Source: Octopus vulgaris (taxonomy: Eukaryota). From it: a stretch of DNA of 64,000 nucleotides. The notes beneath the pieces are model-generated. The model searched no databases. It was not told the DNA's origin and saw nothing but the letters and a program-made list of their open reading frames with translations. Both the position numbers and the translations under genes were made by a program. Location: the NCBI GenBank assembly GCA_951406725.2, contig OX597835.1, positions 44,144,001-44,208,000 of the forward strand, in the 5' to 3' direction. Positions 7,299 through 61,470 of the stretch are shown here, piece by piece (position 1 is the stretch's first letter; each line of letters begins with the position of its first letter).

Positions 7299-7924
7299 TA
7301 TATATATATGTAACATATGGTATAATTATGAGCAGAGCAAATTTTAGCCATTTCTCCGGAGACTGAAAAAATGTTGAACAACCTGAATCGATTTTCGAAC
7401 CTCATTTTGACAATTTCCAGAGAAACAAACTGTATATATATATATATATATATAATAAATATTATTTTTCTCTTTCGAAAAAGTTTCTTTTTTTACACAG
7501 TTGCTTGGAAGTGCTCAGGTCGAACCCGAGACGCCAGACATTATATAATTTGGTTTAAGAAGAGACAAAATTTAGATAACCACTCTATAATTGTGATATA
7601 CACCAACATATTAAATACATATAACACAAAATTACAGCAAGACAAGGAACATAACTATATATTATTTAGAATAAAGATAATAAATGGATGAGGTAAAAAT
7701 CTACGTGAAAAGGATAAGTAAATAAAGGGTGATATATCGATTAAAATCATTTTAAATTTAAGATTAAAAAACGGTGAATTAAGGATTAAAAGGTGTAAGA
7801 TACATCGACAGCAGTGAGAAATCCTTATGAGAGATTTAAATGTTTAGTGGAGTTCCGAAGAAATGTTTATAGAGCAAATGCTTCATATACGTTGTTATGA
7901 GTCTCTCTATATATAAGAACGTGT

Positions 7925-8520
7925 GAATCGTTGGCGATTTTCTTCCTCCGTCTTCCGTTCTTTTCGGCTTTCCTTAATTTCTGAAGAAGAGCTTTGCACG
8001 AAACGTTAAATCCTCTTTCTTTGCTTTCCTGAGCGTCTGATAATTTATTACTTGTATAACTTCCTCGCGTTTGTTCTTCTTTATTTGAATTCAGTGTATA
8101 TGTATATATATATATATATACATGTCCTGAATTTTTCAAAACACGGATTAGAAAAACCACCGACAACCGACGAAGGGACGTTCTTTGTCTTGCTTGTCTT
8201 GTTTTCCATTTGTTTCTTTTGTTGTTGTTTGCAAAAAAGTTCATATTCCATGTCTTCGTACTTCGTATTTTTTATTGTTTACGTTTTGTGAGGTCCTGTC
8301 GCCACATATGCATATATATATACATATACATGTAAATATGTACGTATACGTATGTATGTATGTATGTATGTATGTATGTATGTATGTATGTATGTATATA
8401 TATATATTTATATATATATATGTATGTATGTATATATATATATATTTATATATATATATACATTATTCATATTATTATATGATTGAACGCCACGATCCTT
8501 TTCCAAGTTTTATCTATCTG
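7925..8520 (+). mobile_element. Composite repeat F-G-H with hammerhead-like motif and internal microsatellites
   Basis: Modules match 30930-31670 in the same order: ggcgatttt...CTGAAGAAGAGCTTTGCACGAAACGTT...cctgagcgtc; caaccgacgaaggga...; atatgattgaacgccacgatccttttccaagt. Confidence 0.65.
7977..8011 (+). ncRNA. Minimal type-I hammerhead ribozyme-like motif
   Basis: AUUU-CUGAAGA-A-GAGC-UUU-GCAC-GAAA-CG-UU-AAAU: intact core, 4-bp stem I, one mismatch in stem II, palindromic AACGUU stem III. Confidence 0.55.
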
Positions 8521-11275: not shown

Positions 11276-11919
11276 CTACTGCGTGCACTCTAGCTCTCTA
11301 TGTCGTATTGTAAATATAATATTATGGCTGTGTGCTGTGTTTGTTGTTGAATAAATATCAGTGATATAGTATGTGATAGCAACGCTAAAACAATAACGCC
11401 ATTGCCTGATAGCCAATGGTTGTTCAATGTTATACAGAGTTGCTTATTTATGTTTTCTTTTCTTCCGCAACGAACGTCATGTTATATCGATTTTCGTTAG
11501 ACTTCCAAACACGTATGTTTGTGTATGTATGCTTCGGTTTCCTGCGTTGAAGGCTTTGCGAGAATCTGCTGCTCTGAGCTCTGAGCTCGAACACTGTTCA
11601 TGCTTTCGTGTTTCCCTTTCATGCTTTCGTGTTTGTTAACCTGTGTACACGTCTTGATTTGTGGATCGGCCGGCATGTCAGTGTTGCTCTGTATTTGCCC
11701 GTTTCATCTCTTCACGTTCTTGGTTCATATCGCGCCTCCTCTTTACTTAAAAATCAAACTGATCTTTCTCCCTGATTAATCAGGGCAGAAAAGATAACAC
11801 GTAGGAAGGATTGAAGTTCTTTGCGCTTGCGTCGTTCTTTTCGTTCAGTCCTATTTTTCTTCATTTCTTCTCTCTTTCTCTCCCTCTCCATAGATAGACG
11901 CAAAAATATACAAATATCT

Positions 11920-12056
11920 TACGTTTATATATTTGTTGTGCAAGATTTTTTATGTGAAGTCGTGTGTTGAAACAAACAATGTTGTATTTCGGAATGGTCA
12001 TTTTGCCAATTTAGCCAATAAAAACACACGCACTGTATATTTGGTGTTACTTTGCT
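11920..12056 (-). mobile_element. Terminal fragment of the fold-back element found at 38494-38989
   Basis: acgtttatatatttgttgtgcaag...ggaatggtcattttgcca...ggtgttactttgct is the reverse complement of ~38852-38987. Confidence 0.8.
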
Positions 12057-12156
12057 AGGATCTTTTAAACAGAGCTCAGAGCAGCAAACACTCGCAAAGC
12101 CTTCCACGTAGTATCCGATACATACATACACAAACATACAAATATCTGTTTCAGAT

Positions 12157-14630: not shown

Positions 14631-14968
14631 TATATAAAAGAGTTTATGTGGTAACCCGAGTTGCTAGAAATAATAACCAAATCTCCGTCACATCACATAA
14701 CATTTTCTCTGTATGGGAAGTCAAAATCTTATATTGCAGTGAGTGCGCGAAGGTAATGTTGTGAATATCAGCGACATCTAGATGGCATTCAAGGAGAACC
14801 CTGTCTACAAGATATCCCAAAAATTATGCTGACATGTATTGCCCATATCCTTAGAAAAACCCAATCAATTTAAATGTTTGCGTTGTATTGCCCGGAAGTA
14901 TTTCGCTTCTGCTCTTCCTACATCCTCTCCCCAAGCATTCAGCTGTATTTCACTATCTCTGAACCTCA

Positions 14969-15320
14969 GGCGGTGGGCTGGCAGGAACGTTAGCACGCCG
15001 GGCGAAATGCTTAGCGGTATTTCGTCTGCGTTACGTTGTGAGTTCAAATTCCGCCGAGGTCGACTTTGCCTATCATCCTTTCGGGGTCGATAAATTAAGT
15101 ACCAGTTACGAACTGGGGTCGATGTAATCGACTTAATACCTATGTCTGTCCTTGTTTTTCCCTCTGTGTTTAGCCCCTTGTGGGTAATAAAGAAATAGGT
15201 ATTTCATATGTCTTTATGTTCTGAGTTCAAATTCCACCGAAGTCGACTTTGCCTTTCATCATTTAGGGGTCGATAAATTAAGTGTCAGTTGCGTACTGGG
15301 TTCGATCTATTCGACTGACT
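14969..15320 (+). mobile_element. SINE family C with internal tandem duplication
   Basis: ggcggtgggctggcaggaacgttagcacgccgggcgaaatgc...gagttcaaattccgccgaggtcgactttgcc; the core restarts at ~15199. Confidence 0.88.
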
Positions 15321-16075
15321 CTCTCTAATGGACTGGCTCTCAGGTGTTCAAAGTTTTATAATTTTCAGAATTTTCAGCCAATCAGAAAACAGCGCGTTCG
15401 CTGCTTCTTTTATCATCAGGGGACGGAGGGGGGCATTGGCATGTCAAAACATTAAACTAAAATAGTTGAGTGTGAGTTCCATCTGTTATGAAAACAAGCA
15501 ATTGTGTGCATGTGCAGTATCTTTGGTTGCTATGGAAACAGAGTCCTTTGCAATCAGCTGTGGAACACGTGGTGCTTCTTTGCTTTGGTTACAACAGAAA
15601 CAGACTTCATCGCCATGGTGATGTCTAAAATATTCGCTTCTAATTTAGCAAATTTTAAAGGCTATTAACTTTTTAATCGCGGATCTATTGGGAAAATGAA
15701 TTTCATTTCCATAGTTAGTATACAAAACTTAATCCATATACCAAATTTCAAAGCAAATGGAGCAAAATTGTAAACAGTGACGAAAACCACAATGATCCGA
15801 TACCGGAACCAATGAAGAGACGAGTAGGCCATGGCTGGCTACACCTGCTAAAAGTAGCAGCCGAATTACCTCAAAATCCCACTGCTGTGTCCTGAGACGG
15901 CAAGAACACATTGTCTAATGTATTCCTGGATGCACTACGTGCGAACAATATTAGGGATCTTTTATTGTGAGAATTATTGACCTTGGCTATCGATATTTTC
16001 AATCAACCAGGTCTGATAAAACAAACAAAAGAGACAACCAGGAAATCGATCAGAAGAGAATCTTTTAGCTTCGAT

Positions 16076-19148: not shown

Positions 19149-19773
19149 TGTTCAAATAAAATTGAATACGGCAAAAGTTTAAGACCTCAATGGAAAACTC
19201 TTCTAAAAATTATAATGACGACTTGTACAAATCAGAAGTGTTAAGGTGAGACAGTGTCACGTGACAACTTGCTGGGGCTGCCTGCTGGAGCTTATGCGGC
19301 AGGTATGTTCAAATAAAATTGAATACGCTGACAATAAGTTTAAGAGGCTAGGGAACAGAAGAAAGAAGACATGCACCGGGGGAGGGCGCCACGTCAAATC
19401 AGTGTTAAGGTGAGACCGGATGTGGTTCCTCCTGATGATGTCTTGAGCTAACTTGCTGGAGCTGTTGTGGTAGCAGACCACGGCACGGTTGAAATTCCTC
19501 CGTTAAAGGGAAAAATTGGACAAATCAGTCAGTCACCGTCTGACACTCGCTGACAATAATCGAAGAGGCTAGGGAACAGAAGAAAGAAGACATGCACCCA
19601 ACACCAGAGCTGAAGACACCTCCGAAAGGGGGAGGGCGCCACGTCAAAACAGTAGAGGAGTAGGGGCCGAAACCGGATGTGGTTCCTCCTGATGATGTCT
19701 TGAGCTAACTGGATCCTATAAAGGAGCTGTTGTGGTAGCAGACCACGAAACACGGTTGAAATTCCTCCGTTAT
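19149..19773 (+). repeat. Scrambled tandem duplication of a GC-richer repeat
   Basis: cgctgacaataa..gaggctagggaacagaagaaagaagacatgcac and ccggatgtggttcctcctgatgatgtcttgagctaac each occur twice; tgttcaaataaaattgaatacg occurs twice. Confidence 0.8.
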
Positions 19774-23507: not shown

Positions 23508-24053
23508 TCCTGGCTTGTTTTCGCGAATAAATATTCACCGAAGATGTCCACGTCTGTTTCAAGCCTGCCCATGCCCACCCTGTCCGATCCTAGGAAGGAG
23601 GACTGATCAGCGTTGTTTGCAGTGTTTTTGTTTTACATTCTTTTTCATTTGTTTGCAAAGATGTCCCCGCGGGTGCCTTCAAAAAAAGGTGTTTTGGACC
23701 AGTGGACATTGAAACGCCAGGCTTCTTGGTCAGTGGCAAGCACAGACCAGTGGTGCTGATGATGAATATGGCAGAACCTGAGGGACTTCATACGGGAGTC
23801 CTTCTACATCTTTGATATTCATGTACCACAGTGATAAGAGCAGAGTTTGCCATACAGCGTGAGCTTTCGAAGTCAATAATTGTCTATCCTGGATGATGTG
23901 AATGCAGAGCTGATGGAATTGCTGAAGAAGTCATTGGTCATGATGATAAATGACCGACGTATAAGTGGATGGTCAGAACAACTGTTCTGTATACATTGAC
24001 CTTGGTCATTTTCTTCAGGTGGTTCTTGTTTCACATCCTTCTGTACAGTCTGC
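23508..24053 (-). pseudogene. RTE(BovB-like) LINE, 3' portion (thumb, C-terminus, 3' end)
   Basis: Minus strand RLYRRM*NKNHLKKMTKVNVYRTVVLT resembles GRLxxRVW..TKxxVYRAVVL; LLQQFHQLCI resembles LLERFHQRCL; RKLTLYGKL resembles PKxxxYGEL. Confidence 0.7.
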
Positions 24054-24385
24054 ACGAAAACCAGAAGGGCCAGGTCAGGTACAGCGAGAACCTCTCCGAG
24101 CCCTTCCCTGTTAGCAACGGTGTGAAGCAAGGCTGCGTCCCCGCACCGACTCTTTTCACCATCTTCTTTAGTAATATGTCCCATCAGGCCACAGAAAACT
24201 ATGACGAAGACGAACGCTTGTACCTATACTACCTTACTGATGACAGCTTCTTCAACCTGAGGTGCCTGGAAGCTCACATCGAAACACTGGAACAAACCAT
24301 CCATGAGATAATTTTTGCAGACGGTTGCCAACAGAAAGACAGTCTTGCAACGTATCATCGCTTTCTGCCCGGCAGTTTGACCAAG
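24047..24385 (+). pseudogene. RTE(BovB-like) LINE RT core fragment, inverted relative to the adjacent 3' part
   Basis: SLHENQKGQVRYSENLSEPFPVSNGVKQGCVPAPTLFTIFF...DDSFFNLRCL...IHEIIFADG: GVKQGC motif and degenerate FADD. Confidence 0.85.
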
Positions 24386-24826
24386 AAGACAGTTTAAAAA
24401 AGAAAGAAACGAAAATATCTATGAATACATTATCCGTTTCTAAAAAGAACTTACTACTATTTATAGCAGATACAAGCACCAGTGAAAATCTGTTGCATAA
24501 TCTCATATTCAATAAGCATTGCTCAGCTTAGTCTTGGATGGTTTTCACTTTTTTACTACATTGCACATCGGACAGCAATGCAAAGTCACAAATAGAAGAA
24601 TTTCAATTAACGCTGATTGGCAAAACGAAACGAGATGTAAGTAAACGTGGTTTCGATTTTTATTCTGAGATCACCGTCCGTTCTCGGTTGAAAATATCTT
24701 TCAACTTTTCGATGGCTATCAAATAACTATCAGTTAAATTCTCGAATCGATACACTGATTTATATTTCCACATAGAAGTTTATAATAAAATAAACGAAAC
24801 CAACGAAAGCATTACATATAGATAGT

Positions 24827-30680: not shown

Positions 30681-30929
30681 TTTGAGAGATCAGGGGTCAC
30701 CTTTACCTACAACTGCCCTTATCCGTGTCATCAATGTCGCCCAAAGAAAAAGCAAAGGCCGATACAGCTTGGTAGTAGTGACATCGTAACTCATTTCTAC
30801 AGCGGAACGAAGTGGAACAGCGCGAAATAAAGTGAAATACACAACCCAGTCCGGCAATCGAGCTCACTATAAATATACACGAGTGTGCATGCGTATAAAT
30901 ATGTATATATGTATATATGTGACCTCGTG

Positions 30930-31116
30930 AGTACCGCTGGCGATTTTGTTTTCCCTTCTCGGGACCTTTCCTTCTCCTATGTTTCCGACGAAGAGCTCCG
31001 CTCGAAACGTTGAACCCTCCTTCTTCCCTTCTTTCCTGAGCGTCCAATAGTACTTTATTTGTTCCACGTCCTCGCGTTGTTGTGTTTTTTTTTTTTGTGT
31101 TTTCTTGTTTGGATTA

Positions 31117-31175
<59 letters not shown>

Positions 31176-37965: not shown

Positions 37966-38613
37966 AATTAAATGTAAATGTTAAATTACATGGTTAAAGA
38001 GTACAGTATAGTGTTAAATATAAACGATACAATACAATAAGAATTGGCGATATTAGCCAGAAACAACAGCAATGACATCAACAACAACGGTTACAGCAAC
38101 TATAATAACAACAACGACTTCCCGAACAATAACAACTATAACATCAACGATGACAACGTGACCAACACAGAGAATTAAGGACCAGTAAGGGAGCTGTTAC
38201 ATGCTTGTTTGATTTGCTAGATGCATCAGGTAAATCTGCTTCCGATTATACCCTAAAGTCTCGAGGAAATTAAGGGTCATTTTGCATAATGTAGTCTAAG
38301 ACAGTGCTACTCAAAATCGTGGTCCGCTGACCGGTGCCGGTCTGGTCCCCGAGCCATCAGCTGCCGGGACGCGGTGAGTTTCCAGAAAAAGAAAGAAACA
38401 TTATAAGACGCTTATAAAATGCTTACATAATATTTATTATTTGTTTACAAAATAAATAAAAGATACAAAATATTGTCAACTTTTATTATATTCACTGTTG
38501 TATTTTGGAATAGTCATTTTGCCAGTTTAGCCAATAAACACACACACACTATATATTTGGTGTTACTTTGCTTCAGTGTTATTTATTTTTTACATTAATC
38601 TTAATCTTATTTC

Positions 38614-38658
38614 GGCCAGAGTTCTTTCGTCACACTCCTGTGACTGCATCAGTGGTCC
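38614..38658 (-). ncRNA. Hammerhead ribozyme-like motif (left arm)
   Basis: GGACCA-CUGAUGCA-GUCACA-GGAG-UGUGAC-GAAA-G-AA-C-UC-UGGCC. Confidence 0.6.
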
Positions 38659-38765
38659 TTTGCTTTGTCCTTATGTTTATAAAGGGGGTGATAAGCACCT
38701 CCACCCAGCAAAGCCAGCAACCATAGTTAGTAAAGAGAGACACAAATAAGAAAGAAGAAAGCAAA

Positions 38766-38810
38766 GGACCACTGATGCGGTCACAGGAGTGTGACGAAAG
38801 AACTCTGGCC
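38766..38810 (+). ncRNA. Hammerhead ribozyme-like motif (right arm)
   Basis: GGACCA-CUGAUGCG-GUCACA-GGAG-UGUGAC-GAAA-G-AA-C-UC-UGGCC: 6-bp stem II, stem I GG(A)CCA/UGGCC, CUC triplet; core differs from CUGAUGA at A9. Confidence 0.6.
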
Positions 38811-39071
38811 GAAATAAGATTAAGATTAATGTAAAAAATGAATAACACTGAAGCAAAGTAACACCAAATATATAGTGCATGTGTTTTTATTGGCTAAACT
38901 GGCAAAATGACCATTCCAAAACACAACAATGTCTGTTTCAACACACGACTTCACATAAAAAATTTTGCACAACAAATATATAAACGTAATTTTATTATAT
39001 TCGTTATAAATATATTAATAGAAATAATATATTTCTAAATCTCTCAGAGAGATTTATTCTGTAGTTACACG

Positions 39072-39400
39072 TTAAAATGGTATTATGTTGTCAACTTAAT
39101 GTGATAGTCCCATGAAAGGGAAGAATACTACTGCTATTTAGCCCTAGGAAGCATTGCTTACTGTTGGCCTTGACACATTTCATGTGTCCTTATGTTTATA
39201 AAGGGGAGATAAGCACCTCCACCCAGCAAAGCCAGCAAACATAGACTAGTTTCTGAGTCATTGCTCGTCATCAGTCTGGAGTAGCATGGCTTGAAGGCTT
39301 GAAGGCTGAAAGGAAGAGGTACTTCCTAGGGCTAAATAGCTGTAATATTATTCCCTTTCATGGGACTGTCACATTAAGCTGACAACATACCACAATTTAA
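39072..39400. mobile_element. Fold-back insert 2 (arms ~80 bp) with hammerhead-like motif in the loop
   Basis: 39072-39151 is the reverse complement of 39322-39400 (gtcccatgaaaggg...gctatttagccctaggaag). Confidence 0.75.
39240..39279 (-). ncRNA. Hammerhead ribozyme-like motif
   Basis: CCAGA-CUGAUGA-CGAG-CAAUGA-CUCA-GAAA-CUAG-UC-UAUG: perfect core, palindromic ACUAGU stem III, GUC triplet; stems I and II carry mismatches. Confidence 0.6.
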
Positions 39401-40034
39401 TATATATTGTTTCCTGTAGAAATTATTATTCCTAAGAAACAGTACCAGTCCCTGGCACACTGGAATAAAAAAACAACTGCCGGTATGCCACGTTAGATAG
39501 GTTGAGAAGCACTGCTCTAAGATACACCTATTCCTGAAAAAGTGACAAAAAAAACGAGACTCCAAAATTATGAATCTGTGTTGGTCACAGTGGGATGAAT
39601 GCAATCATAGGTTGCTCGGATCCAATTTGATATGGGGAGAAACAATATAAGCAGCATAGAGTGACACGAATCAACGTGGGATCCGGAACGCAGTCAACTG
39701 ACGTTTTAGAAACAGCAGCCAAAATGCTCGAGGTTGAAATACTGAAGGAAATTCTGAAGAAGATTCTGAAGGAAAGCAAGGTAACATTGCGTTAATATAG
39801 GGCCGTGGTGTATGTGTGCACGTATGCATGCACGTATGTATGTATGTATGTATGTATGTATGTATGTATGTATGTATGTATGTATGTATGTATGTATGCA
39901 TGTATGTATGTATGCATGTATGTATGTATGCATGTATGATTGTATATATATACATAGATATATAGATATATACACAGGCACACACTTATGAATACAGATG
40001 CACACACACACATATATACATATACGTTTATATA

Positions 40035-42438: not shown

Positions 42439-43524
42439 GTCATCCAATAAGTTCTGTCCGATTTTACCTTTTTTAGAATTGAATGAACTTTAATTGCATT
42501 TTGGGATGTCTAATTGAATTAAAAATTACTTTTATGCATTTGTGTACATTTAAACTAATCAAATATTATTTTAGAGGATAATAGAATTAAAATTTCTTTG
42601 GTTAAAACCCTTTCTAACATGGAAGTATCCAAAGAGCATTTAAGGCACATAATGCTTTATGAGTAAAAGAAAGTCTGCAGCCGAAGCGACTCGAAACATA
42701 CACTCAGTTTATGGGAAAGAATGCTTGAATGAAAGAATTTGCAAAAGATGGTTTGCAAAATTTAGAAGTGGAGATTTAAGCCTTCAAGATGAAAATAAAA
42801 CAGGACGTCCAGTTGAGTTTGATGATAAGCTCCTTGAGGCATCACTTGAAAATTTTGCATTATCAGTTGAAGAATTGGTAATAAAGTTTAGTTCAAACCA
42901 TACAACTGAAAGGTTCCTAAACTTGGAAAATGGGTGTCTCATGAATTGTCCGAAAGCAACCGCAAATCCTGAGTTGATATCTGCTCTTCTCTCCATTCTC
43001 ACAAACTCATTTCACCCATTTTGGATAGACTTGTGACTGGTGGCGTAAAATGGATCTTCTATCGAAATGTTAAACGTCGTAAATAGTGGCTTGGTAAAAG
43101 AGAAAAAGCTCAACCTCAACCGAGAAGGGAACTTCATGGGAAAAAGTTTCTTCTCTATATCTGATGGGATTGCAAGGGAGTAATTCACTTTGAATTGTTA
43201 CCAACTAATGCAAAAATCAATGCTTAAGTCCACTGTCAGCAATTAAAGCATTTGAACCAAGCTTTGAAGAAAAAAGACCCGCTTTAGTGAATCGAAAAGT
43301 AATGATGTTTCCTCAGGACAATGCACTACCCCACATTGCAAAGGTCACAACAAAGAAGATCGAAGAGCAAGGGTGGGAAAAAATTCCGACCTTCCTCCTT
43401 CAGACTACCATTTGTTTCGTAGTTTACAGAATCATTAGGGGGACATGACTTTCGCAAACCAAGGGGAGGTCGAAACTGACATTTCAGAGTTCTTCGCTTT
43501 GAAGCCAAAAGAGTTTTACATTGA
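42435..43524 (+). mobile_element. Mariner transposon, decayed, 3' end lost into a microsatellite
   Basis: TA plus TIR-like tcaggtcatccaataagttctgtccg at the left end; transposase remnant follows; no right TIR seen. Confidence 0.85.
42619..43524 (+). pseudogene. Mariner DD34D-type transposase pseudogene
   Basis: MEVSKEHLRHIMLYE*..KSAAEATRNIHSVYG..WFAKFRSGD..GRP; GKWVSHEL (WVPHEL); LVTGGVKW (TGDEKW); QDNALPH; PSDYHLFRSLQNH; multiple stops and frameshifts. Confidence 0.9.
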
Positions 43525-47315: not shown

Positions 47316-47488
47316 TATTGCTTTAAATAAACCTTAGAAGACGTCATAGCTACTCGTGAAACTTTAATTCACCGTTTCTGTTATTTCACTAATTGTTCAC
47401 AATATCCCTCATGTGCTGGCCTTGTGCCAAAATTTGAAACCGATATCCCTCATCTACGTTGTTGCTAACTATAATTTGACTTTGAAAA

Positions 47489-47886
47489 GCGGCGAGCTGG
47501 CAGAATCGTTAACACTCCGGGCGAAATGCTTAGCGTATTTCGTCTGCCGTCACGATCTGAGTTCAAATTCCGCCGAGGTCGACTTTACCTTTCATCCTTT
47601 CGGGGTCGATAAATTAAATACCAGCTACGCACTGGGGTCGATATAACCGACTTAATCCGTTTGTCTGTCCTTGTTTGTCCTCTCTGTGTTTAGCCCCTTG
47701 TGGGTAATAAAGAAATAGGTATTTCGTCTGCCGCTATGTCGTGAGTTCAAATTCCACTGAGGTCTACTTTGCCTTTCATCTCTTCGGAGTCGATTAATTA
47801 AATACCAGTTGCGTACTGTAGTCAATTTAATCGAATGGCCTTCTTCCCAAAAGTCTCTGGCCGTGTGCCTAAAGTAGAAAAGAATA
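47489..47886 (+). mobile_element. SINE family C, dimeric
   Basis: gcggcgagctggcagaatcgttaac...; second core from ~47719; ends ggccgtgtgcctaaagtagaaaagaat. Confidence 0.88.
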
Positions 47887-49205
47887 ATTTCACTGTGATC
47901 CTCGTGCTAAATGGTTGAAAACATTGCAGAACCATTGTATGAGTCAGTGTGTGATATACGAACCCCACCAACGTATTTGCCTCGTATTGAGTGCTTAAAT
48001 GAAATCTTACAAAGGTATTAGCTTGGAATTTGGTCTAATGGCTTCAAAGACGACAGAAAGAAATCGTTGTTCATCATAAGTAGGTGACTATTTTACCTTA
48101 AAAAAAATATGTGGTATATATATATATATGCATTTGTTTTTGGTACAAACTATTGCTTTCTTGTTGGTGTCTTGTTGGTTAATTCATTTATATTAAAGAT
48201 TTATTTGTTGTTGCAAGCAATATTCATAACTACTACTTTGTTCGCACTTTCTATTTTTGGCAAAGAAAACTTTTGAAATGCATTCGTTGTTGTTGTTATT
48301 GTTGTTGTTGTTGTTGAGCGAATCGTTAATTCCTCGACATTCAGTAACATGTTCCGTTGATGTGGTTTTGAAGCTTTACACAATTAACTCTTCACAATGA
48401 TTGTCTTCTTCGTTTAATAAGCCGAGAAAATCTAAAAGGAATTTGGCACTCGCCTTTTTTGAGTTAATTGCTAACGAATTAAAACAAAAAAAAATAAATA
48501 AATAAATAAAATGTAGGAAAATCTTTATATTTTATAATTCATAACTGAACTGCGCGGCAAGAAACAAGAAGAACAAGAAGAATAAAAGAAAAAAACAAGA
48601 AGAGGTAAAGATAAAAGACAAATGAATAAAGCTAAATTGGAATAAATTGAAATAATTTCTTTCATTTAACACAGGTGAACAGGATGAATGGGATAGCACA
48701 AGAATCAATTAGTAAAACGGTTCAGTTTCAAGTGGAATCGATTATGAAGAGATAAAAGAGAAAAATTAACCCATCCACCACCACGAAAATATATACAAGC
48801 ATGAAAAGCAGAAGAATAAAAAAGGGATGAGATGTAAAATAGTCACAGAGAGAGAGAGAGGGGAAACAGTTTAGGATTTTCATAGGTACAAGTTTACTTC
48901 TTACAGACATGTGTCTAAGCCACTTATGTTTCCAGCCTACAAATAAGGACCAAGGTCATTCATTCAAACGCCTCTTGCCGCCATATTTCAGCATCTTCAT
49001 TCGAGAGTAATACATCTGTTTCTCCACTCACTCATCAATTGATGAGATTTTAATCTCAAAAGGAATTAATTATCGTAAGTTCTTTCAATATTCTTTCAAT
49101 ATTCTTTCCTTTTATTCGGCATTACAAAAAGATTAAAATAAGGATTCTTCACAGTTGAGCATATATTTCGTAGTGCAGAATGGAATATTAGCTTTATCTT
49201 GTCAA

Positions 49206-49502
49206 ATATTCCTTTGTACTCTAGGCACACGGCCCGAGATTTTGGGGGAGTGGGCCAGTGGATTAGATCAACCCCAGTATACAACTGGTACTTAATTTAT
49301 CAACTCCGAAAGGATGAAAGGCAAAGTCAGCCTCGGCGGAATTTGAACTCAGAACGTAACGGCCGACGAAATACCTATTTCTTTACTACCCACAAGGAGC
49401 TAAACACAGAGGGGACAAACAAGGACAGACAAACGTAAAGACAAACGAAATGCCGCTAAGCATTTCACCCGGCGTACAAACGTTTCTGGCAGGTGGCCGC
49501 CT
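49206..49502 (-). mobile_element. SINE family C, dimeric form with first core deleted
   Basis: Head joined directly to the tgtctgtccttgtttgtcccc linker, then an intact second core. Confidence 0.85.
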
Positions 49503-60764: not shown

Positions 60765-61179
60765 TATTTCTTTACTACCCACAAGGGGCTAAACATAGAG
60801 GGGACAAACAAAGACAGACAAAGGGATTAAGTCGATTACATCGACCCCAGTGCGAAGCTGGTACTTCATTTATCGACCCCAAAAGGATGAAAGGCAAAGT
60901 CGACCTCGGCGGAATTTGAACTCAGAACATAACGACAGACAAACTACCTATTTCTTTACTACCCACAAGGGGTTAAACACAGAGAGGACAAACAAGGACA
61001 GACAAACGGATTAAGTCGATTATATCGACCCCAGTGCGTAACTGGTACTTATTTAATCGACCCCGAAAGGGTGAAAGGCAAAGTCGATCTCGGCGGAATT
61101 TGAACTCAGAACGTAGCGGCAGACGAAATACCGCAAAGTATTTCGCCCGGCGCGCTAACGTTTCGGCCAGCTCGCCGCC
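60765..61179 (-). mobile_element. SINE family C with core+linker unit tandemly repeated
   Basis: tatttctttactacccacaagggg starts at both ~60765 and ~60949; head at 61120-61179. Confidence 0.9.
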
Positions 61180-61470
61180 TTTCAAGTATATAGAACCCGC
61201 GATCACGGGACTGCGAAGTAAAGCATCATGACTATGGAACCAGGTTATGTAGAGTGACAGCAAGAACACGAGTCGATAGTCGCATACATTTCCAATACCC
61301 CAGACGTCACAAAGAGATAACTATCTGATTACGAACTGACGGTTTCGTCAGCAGCAAGAAGTTTGTATGGTATCACGTAACACTTGGGCAGAAAAGATAC
61401 TCCATACTTTTAATATTGAAAACTGTGTCCCAATCAAATTTCTCAAGATAATGTGAGTGTGTGTGTGTGT

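What the first reader, a model, noticed from the sequence alone, without database searches (positions are those of the whole stretch)
38302..39514. Nested locus: hAT MITE holding two fold-back inserts with three hammerhead-ribozyme-like motifs
Seen: TIRs with an 8-bp TSD (7/8) bound a 1.2-kb unit. Inside it, insert 1 (38494-38989, 13-bp flanking direct repeat) has ~170-bp inverted arms, each carrying GGACCA-CUGAUGC(A/G)-GUCACA-GGAG-UGUGAC-GAAA-GAAC-UC-UGGCC. Insert 2 (39072-39400) has ~80-bp arms and, in its loop on the minus strand, CUGAUGA-CGAG..CUCA-GAAA-CUAG-UC. Known: Penelope-like elements carry minimal type-I hammerheads in their pseudo-LTRs and often insert with an inverted partial repeat. 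Inference: these are non-coding, ribozyme-bearing Penelope-dependent elements (retrozyme-like). A transcript of insert 1 from either strand would contain one hammerhead plus its antisense copy, which could act as a fold-back switch on cleavage.
Basis: partly seen in the sequence, partly recalled or inferred. Interest (0 to 1): 0.8.

Follow-up and report, generated by a model that had tools for sequence, protein, structure and literature searches.

The report
Two fold-back Penelope stumps in MITE
Two short hairpin-shaped, hammerhead-bearing stumps, most likely left by two different Penelope-like jumping genes, sit side by side inside a small DNA transposon; this is a known kind of debris, except that one stump holds a 61-base scrap of the other that stops at the predicted ribozyme cut site.

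Summary
In detail: a hAT-type MITE, two fold-back inserts and three hammerhead-like motifs. Public runs contain the empty MITE (joint 38494>39400, 4 of 4 runs). Both inserts belong to very abundant families with Penelope-like (PLE) hallmarks: inverted 5'-truncated copy, two 3' ends about 58 nt apart (the 'tail'), AT-rich targets with TSDs, and, for family A, a likely ORF start. Other copies fold back at different points, so the hairpin is made anew at each insertion and is not a mobile unit. No RT/GIY-YIG ORF could be linked. The 'switch' fails: on both strands the antisense copy is transcribed first and buries the ribozyme (about 70 kcal/mol). All three local motifs are degenerate. This may be a fossil of in-vivo self-cleavage (one event, post hoc). 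The architecture is published (PMC4209133, PMC8557442), and this scan noted similar stumps in other genomes. Verdict: new members of a known kind; interest 0.3.

The parts
38294..38301 (.). left 8-bp target-site duplication of the MITE (7 of 8 with 39515-39522)
   Evidence: 38 X1 contigs have loose ends before 38302
38302..38493 (.). left part of the non-autonomous hAT-type MITE, TIR 38302-38315; empty element about 308 bp
   Evidence: (joint 38494>39400, skips 905, 4 of 4 runs)
38481..38493 (.). 13-bp target site of insert 1 (copy 1; MITE sequence)
38494..38665 (-). family A inverted copy without tail; its 3' end faces left; carries degenerate min-HHR (core starts 38652, predicted cut 38619|38618)
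38666..38726 (-). segment S: 61-nt scrap of family B captured at the fold-back junction; shares two rare alleles with insert 2; its sense 5' end is the predicted HHR-B cut site (38725, or 38726 if the shared G is counted)
38727..38989 (+). family A direct copy, 5'-truncated (the family continues upstream in other copies); min-HHR core at 38772, predicted cut 38805|38806; tail 38931-38989
   Evidence: (loose ends at 38726, 38734, 38930, 38988)
38907..38987 (+). 27 open codons from ATG to the element end; likely N-terminus of the parent element's ORF (inferred; no homologue found)
   Evidence: X5 loose end at 38925 keeps MTIPKY through 3 synonymous changes; searches found no real relative
38990..39002 (.). 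13-bp target-site duplication of insert 1 (copy 2)
39008..39016 (.). probable target-site duplication of insert 2 (8 of 9 with 39400-39408; AT-rich, weak)
   Evidence: by eye
39017..39293 (-). family B long copy with tail (about 39017-39073), arm, segment S (39185-39244) and HHR-B (core starts 39274, predicted cut 39244|39243); 5'-truncated at 39293
39294..39321 (.). junction filler between the two family B copies, including a short GGCTTGAA duplication
   Evidence: family B contigs leave the window sequence at 39293
39322..39399 (+). family B short inverted copy without tail; 3' end faces right
39400..39514 (.). right part of the MITE, TIR 39501-39514
39515..39522 (.). right 8-bp target-site duplication of the MITE
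11919..12056 (-). third family A piece (138 nt, 94%) ending on the same 3' base as 38989, inside another fold-back

Best explanation
A small hAT-type DNA transposon carries two adjacent head-to-head fold-back insertions from two abundant repeat families, most likely dead-on-arrival 3' ends of Penelope-like retrotransposons, each with a decayed hammerhead-like motif that is predicted to be inactive here. Inferred mechanism: the element's endonuclease nicks both strands of an AT-rich target. Its reverse transcriptase starts on the RNA at two internal sites about 58 nt apart, so two cDNAs grow towards each other, one with the tail and one without; both stop early and are joined, leaving a hairpin between target duplications. 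Family B landed first or in the same episode. While making its left arm, the family A reaction switched template onto family B sequence from the neighbour or from its source RNA, copied 61 nt, and stopped at the predicted HHR-B cut site before joining the right arm. The locus itself is likely inert.
For: Shown: empty MITE joint in 4 of 4 runs; pile-ups of family A ends at 38930 (42, 57, 31 contigs in X1, X5, X9) and 38988 (29 in X1), followed by (TA)n-like flanks; family A continues upstream of 38727 and family B upstream of 39293 in other copies; other copies fold back at other points (38536>38812, 38537>38726, 38605>38772, 38606>38886, 38613>38892, 38616>38726; 39154>39322, 39213>39347, 39275>39356); summed contig depth peaks about 40,000x (A) and 5,000x (B) above the unique flank in X1, an order-of-magnitude hint only (all). 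A third copy ends on the same base. 27 open codons lie at the end of A, conserved through synonymous changes in a diverged subfamily. The family-majority letter at 39242 (97-98% of depth in all 4 runs) gives a perfect 5-bp helix I, so the local HHR-B is a decayed copy. Published match: dual min-HHRs 100-700 bp apart on opposite strands (PMC4209133); inverted 5'-truncated copy plus tail (PMC8557442); pLTR containing the first codons of the ORF (PMC3846280); tail defined by two RT start sites (PMC11167929).
Against: No RT or GIY-YIG sequence was linked to either family: no genome is held, and protein searches with the short peptide gave nothing real. The tails (57-58 nt) are longer than the published 30-40 nt. 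Family B shows no ORF start in any frame and could be a non-autonomous family. Rfam has no hit. Whether the C at core position 9 of HHR-A and the C.A at the base of helix II of HHR-B are local decay or family traits could not be read, because one search showed only 40 of 135 variant rows. Insert order and the template switch are inferred from one locus.
Confidence: 0.78

Rival explanations
1. Family B (and less likely A) is a dedicated non-coding, PLE-dependent mini-element or retrozyme, whose long helix I and palindromic helix III make a working dimeric ribozyme that releases short or circular RNAs; insert 2 is a truncated copy of it.
For: HHR-B has an intact CUGAUGA core, palindromic ACUAGU, a family-level perfect 5-bp helix I, and upstream family sequence complementary to S (25 of 30 letters, 2 of the 4 mismatches being G.U on the ribozyme strand; by eye loose ends). 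No ORF start in B. A head-to-tail joint 39293>39017 occurs in 4 of 4 runs.
Against: That joint is on only 1-2 contigs per run, at depth 71-106 in X1 and X5 against about 45 for unique DNA, so one or two loci rather than arrays. B has the same tail and variable fold-back centres as A. Non-LTR retrozymes are defined as tandem repeats (bioRxiv 10.64898/2026.07.22.740005; PMC7229834).
Confidence: 0.14
2. The inserts are fold-back DNA transposons (long-TIR MITE or Mutator-like) that happen to carry hammerhead-like words.
For: Long inverted arms and 9-13 bp target duplications.
Against: The arms are unequal by a fixed tail; the centres vary between copies; a solo arm with tail exists at 11919-12056; ends pile up at two sites followed by (TA)n.
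Confidence: 0.04
3. One reading: the fold-back RNA of insert 1 regulates hammerhead cleavage through its antisense copy.
For: Each strand of insert 1 does contain one motif and its antisense copy.
Against: The antisense copy precedes the motif on both strands; helix I pair probabilities are below 1e-45; the penalty is 71-77 kcal/mol even for RNA ending 6 nt past the cut. Core A9 is C in both copies, and a minimal HHR needs a second sense copy (PMC4209133). The junction varies between copies.
Confidence: 0.02

Closest known systems
Complex insertions of endonuclease-positive Penelope-like elements: pLTR, inverted 5'-truncated copy, optional tail (Craig et al. 2021, PMC8557442; Arkhipova et al. 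2013, PMC3846280; Frangieh et al. 2024, PMC11167929)
   Same: Head-to-head arms with 3' ends outward, tail on one arm only, two family 3' ends, AT-rich or (TA)n targets, short TSDs, first codons of an ORF inside the repeat (family A).
   Different: Tails of 57-58 nt against the published 30-40; no ORF body at this locus; two families side by side with a cross-family scrap at the junction; parent RT+GIY-YIG ORF not found.
Minimal type-I hammerheads (min-HHR) of metazoan PLEs (Cervera and De la Pena 2014, PMC4209133)
   Same: HHR-A has a 6-bp helix II with G10.1-C11.1, an extra nucleotide after position 9 and a short helix I; pairs on opposite strands 100-700 bp apart are described there. HHR-B has the small palindromic helix III of the variant class.
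   Different: Local HHR-A has C at position 9 and a non-palindromic spacer; local HHR-B has C.A at 10.1-11.1. Family B appears to have a helix I extended to about 40 bp, whereas the parts I read give 4-6 bp.
Non-LTR retrozymes (Cervera and De la Pena 2020, PMC7229834; Li et al. 2026, bioRxiv 10.64898/2026.07.22.740005)
   Same: Short, type-I hammerhead-bearing, PLE-related, non-coding at this locus.
   Different: Not tandem monomers; inverted rather than direct arrangement; no circular RNA evidence; family A carries a likely ORF start.
Non-autonomous hAT MITEs, Charlie-like (label recalled, not from a call)
   Same: 14-bp TIR starting CAGTG, 8-bp TSD of the form NTCTA(G/A)NN, about 308 bp empty, multicopy, non-coding.
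   Different: No transposase partner was looked for; this copy is interrupted by 905 bp.

Membership tests
EN+ Penelope-like element | ORF with PLE reverse transcriptase and GIY-YIG endonuclease linked to the repeat | tested here: inconclusive
   No such ORF seen in the window ORF list; no genome held; peptide searches gave 0 hits and 3 repeat-protein artefacts; 5 sequence terms absent from the one supplement file held for each of PMC8557442 and PMC13282606
EN+ Penelope-like element | Inverted 5'-truncated copy next to the direct copy, variable junction | tested here: met
   at least 9 other junctions among the rows shown
EN+ Penelope-like element | Tail on one end (two alternative 3' ends) | tested here: met
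   A: 38930 and 38988/9; B: about 39074 and 39017; 57-58 nt, longer than the published 30-40
EN+ Penelope-like element | Short TSD, AT-rich target | tested here: met
   13 of 13 for insert 1, 8 of 9 (weak) for insert 2; (TA)n-like flanks
EN+ Penelope-like element | pLTR includes the first codons of the ORF | tested here: inconclusive
   A: 27 open codons in 2 of 2 tailed copies and synonymous conservation in a subfamily, but short and without a homologue; B: none seen
min-HHR (type I) | Intact core CUGANGA...GAAA...UH | tested here: inconclusive
   Met in HHR-B; not met in the 2 local HHR-A copies (position 9 is C); family state not among the 40 of 135 variant rows shown
min-HHR (type I) | Helix I and helix II pairing, G10.1-C11.1 | tested here: inconclusive
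   A: 6-bp helix II closed by G-C, helix I 4 of 5; B: helix I perfect in the family majority, 10.1-11.1 is C.A locally
min-HHR (type I) | Covariation across many copies | not testable with these tools
   No multi-copy sequences obtained: 5 scans empty and 2 with one chance match each (searches cover 8 scans in all, 6 empty)
min-HHR (type I) | Self-cleavage as a dimer | not testable with these tools
   needs a bench assay
Non-LTR retrozyme | Head-to-tail tandem monomers, each with an HHR | tested here: not met
   Arrangement here is inverted; the only head-to-tail joint shown is on 1-2 contigs per run at near single-copy depth (15 of 119 joints shown)
Non-LTR retrozyme | Abundant circular or linear monomer RNA | not testable with these tools
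   only contigs were offered; none on record as RNA
hAT MITE | Short TIRs, 8-bp TSD, non-coding, multicopy, shared ends | tested here: met

The most novel reading that the evidence does not exclude
Segment S is a genomic fossil of Penelope hammerhead self-cleavage in vivo: a family A reverse transcriptase jumped onto a family B RNA and ran off its 5' end exactly at the ribozyme cut. Family B would be a hammerhead variant held together by a helix I of about 40 bp. If so, cross-family scraps at fold-back junctions could be mined genome-wide as a record of which PLE ribozymes really cut, a point left open by PMC11167929 (no RNA-seq ends at the cut) and PMC4209133 (weak in-vitro activity).
Probability: 0.25. 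Interest if true: 0.6.

Novelty: new member of a known kind. Interest (0 to 1): 0.3.

Why it matters
As it stands it matters little: it is annotated-type retroelement debris, and the same window holds at least seven more hammerhead-like stumps of two other families. It would matter if the S endpoint proves systematic. The role of PLE hammerheads is open (dispensable for insertion in vitro, no cut-site read ends in PMC11167929), and junction scraps ending at cut sites would be direct evidence that these ribozymes cleave in vivo and that cleaved RNAs of one family are copied by another family's enzyme. My two searches pairing octopus with hammerhead listed no paper describing octopus PLE hammerheads beyond a Naiad 'half core' entry; subscription papers and repeat libraries were not searchable.

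Tried and rejected
Whole genome: none held. Rfam to E 10: only spurious miRNA-type hits, no hammerhead. Collection scans for related DNA, 8 in all: 6 empty and 2 with a single match, L001 (58% GC) and L002 (51% GC, bacterial), neither extending beyond 20-23 nt, rejected as chance. Peptide searches: 0 hits; 3 hits that are tandem-repeat proteins with 38-43% identity over about 20 residues, rejected. Sequence terms in paper supplements: 0 of 5 in each of two papers, one file each; their FASTA libraries were not among the files held. No RNA holder listed; X10 is only guessed to be RNA, so expression and 5' ends at 38806 were not testable, and 'places where many molecules begin or end' was empty because contigs cannot show this. 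A splice donor guessed downstream of S was dropped because the family-majority letter at 39160 removes it. The joint 38494>39021 was not read as a MITE with insert 2 only: its filler letters resemble the MITE's own right part, so it is probably a misplaced empty MITE. The terminon paper PMC5850863 was not held, so long helix I variants described there, if any, were not compared. The search by sequence among earlier findings gave one unrelated note, and this genome has no earlier notes.

Full report
Setting. The window is AT-rich (26-42% GC per 2 kb), microsatellite-laden animal DNA, full of short interspersed repeats, with a mariner HTH remnant and a weak RT remnant. From recall of its SINE-like repeats it looks like octopus DNA; no call names the organism. 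No genome is held, so family-level evidence comes from one laying of 4 of the 24 listed public runs. All four are contigs, and the tables were cut: 40 of 135 variant rows, 15 of 119 joints, 12 of 74 filler rows and 24 of 1911 loose ends were shown.

Observation. The TIRs (12 of 14), the 8-bp TSD (7 of 8) and the 13-bp repeat (13 of 13) are as described. The arms are 180 nt at 94% and 77 nt at 90%. The three motifs exist, and the right-arm cut would be 38805|38806. With my descriptor, 2 of 5000 and 17 of 5000 shuffles of inserts 1 and 2 matched as well. Rfam found no hammerhead. The empty MITE is real: contigs join 38494 to 39400 in 4 of 4 runs, so the whole 905 bp is inserted into an element of about 308 bp.

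What the inserts are. Both arms of each insert point their 3' ends outward. Family A ends pile up at 38930 (42, 57, 31 contigs in X1, X5, X9) and 38988 (29 in X1), followed by (TA)n-like flanks. The left arm ends at the first site; the right arm and a third copy at 11919 end at the second. Family B extends to about 39017, 57 nt past its short arm. This is the PLE tail, which PMC11167929 traces to two internal RT start sites and PMC8557442 describes together with the inverted 5'-truncated copy. In other copies both families continue upstream of the local 5' ends and fold back at other points (at least six A and three B junctions among the rows shown). The hairpin is therefore an insertion product, not the mobile unit. 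Family A ends in 27 open codons from an ATG, open in both tailed copies, with 2 of their 5 differing codons synonymous. A subfamily in X5 (22 contigs) keeps MTIPKY through three synonymous changes while the upstream letters diverge. PMC3846280 describes a pLTR holding the first 12-22 codons of the ORF. No protein homologue was found, so the link to an autonomous element is inferred.

The ribozymes. HHR-A fits the min-HHR layout of PMC4209133 (long helix II, extra base after position 9, short helix I, and pairs on opposite strands 100-700 bp apart). But both local copies have C at core position 9, which from general hammerhead knowledge (recalled) should cripple it, and the family state was not shown. 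HHR-B keeps CUGAUGA and a palindromic ACUAGU. Locally its helix I has a G.A mismatch, but 97-98% of depth in all four runs carries the letter at 39242 that gives CCAGA/UCUGG. The family sequence upstream of 39293 (40 contigs in X5, 23 in X9; agreement 0.67 and 0.59) is complementary to the region just past the cut. By eye, 25 of 30 letters of the X9 consensus match, and two of the four mismatches are G.U on the ribozyme strand. Together with the pairing seen in the window this gives an interrupted helix I of about 40 bp. That rests on a 30-letter consensus, not on an alignment.

The switch. On both strands of insert 1 the antisense core comes first (positions 154 vs 279, and 213 vs 338). Enforcing the hammerhead fold costs 77 and 72 kcal/mol in the full RNA, and 71 in RNA ending 6 nt after the cut. 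There is no kinetic window; the motif is locked off.

The loop of insert 1 contains 38666-38726, 95% identical to 39185-39244 of insert 2. Both copies carry T at the 39199 and 39242 equivalents, where 97-100% of family depth has another letter, so the scrap came from the neighbour, its source RNA, or a small shared subfamily. In register, the scrap ends at C17 of HHR-B (39244), and U1.1 is 39243. The last G can equally come from family A, whose upstream sequence has G there (loose ends), so the family B part ends on the first base of the predicted 3' cleavage product. With 110 or more bases of family B available upstream, a hit within one base has a chance of roughly 2 in 100 (my estimate, post hoc, one event). 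Against the cleavage reading: the copied allele already had the helix I mismatch; no pile-up of family B ends at this site is among the 24 loose-end rows shown; and stalling at the structure or copying from nearby DNA could give the same result.

Context. The window has five copies of one and two copies of another hammerhead-like family, most running into (TA)n. PMC13282606 gives Penelope-like elements 6.83% of the Octopus vulgaris genome in 190 families (supplement row). Earlier notes of this scan report the same kind of stump in other genomes, one with a cross-family scrap; I use them as leads only.

Papers seen. PMC4209133 and PMC11167929: parts 1-2 of 4 of the text. bioRxiv 10.64898/2026.07.22.740005: part 1 of 5. 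PMC8557442, PMC3846280, PMC7229834, PMC13282606: passages, plus a term search of one supplement file for PMC8557442 and for PMC13282606. Repeat libraries and alignments in unseen supplements could already contain these families. A search for cross-family chimeras ending at a PLE hammerhead cut listed six papers, none on this by title or abstract start.

Verdict. Observation confirmed; interpretation partly supported. Truncated fold-back PLE ends in a hAT MITE 0.78; dedicated retrozyme-like family B 0.14; fold-back DNA transposon 0.04; regulatory switch 0.02. New members of a known kind, interest 0.3. The cut-site scrap is the one lead worth a genome-wide test.

Noticed in passing
window about 700 (-), about 5975 (+), 30587 (+), 40166 (-), 42241 (+): Five copies of another family with a minimal-hammerhead-like motif (core reads CUGUUGA in 3 of 5, helix II GAGC/GCUC), most running into (TA)n about 110 nt downstream.
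   Followed up: partly
window 7910-8130 (+) and 30915-31150 (+): Two copies of a fourth hammerhead-like family ending in (TA)n.
   Followed up: partly
window 11513-12139: Another fold-back (71-nt arms, 86%) encloses the third family A piece (11919-12056) with no obvious TSD; possibly a second cross-family chimera.
   Followed up: partly
window 39017-39060: The family B tail folds into two small hairpins, and the first 3' end of both families lies in an AC-rich stretch, recalling the AC-rich stem loop of RT initiation in PMC11167929.
   Followed up: no
window 19326-19772: A partial tandem repeat (about 180-225 nt, 74%) with a CUGAAGA...GAAA word in the second copy; not a clear hammerhead.
   Followed up: no
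window 42653-43036 (+) and 23954-24397 (+): Remnants of a mariner transposase (HTH_48, E 5.8e-14) and of a LINE-type reverse transcriptase (RVT_1, E 1.7e-6, below the curated cut-off).
   Followed up: partly
window 14968-15324, 47482-47834, 49204-49435, 60765-61185: An abundant family of about 350 nt with internal and tandem duplications of about 184 nt; not examined.
   Followed up: no
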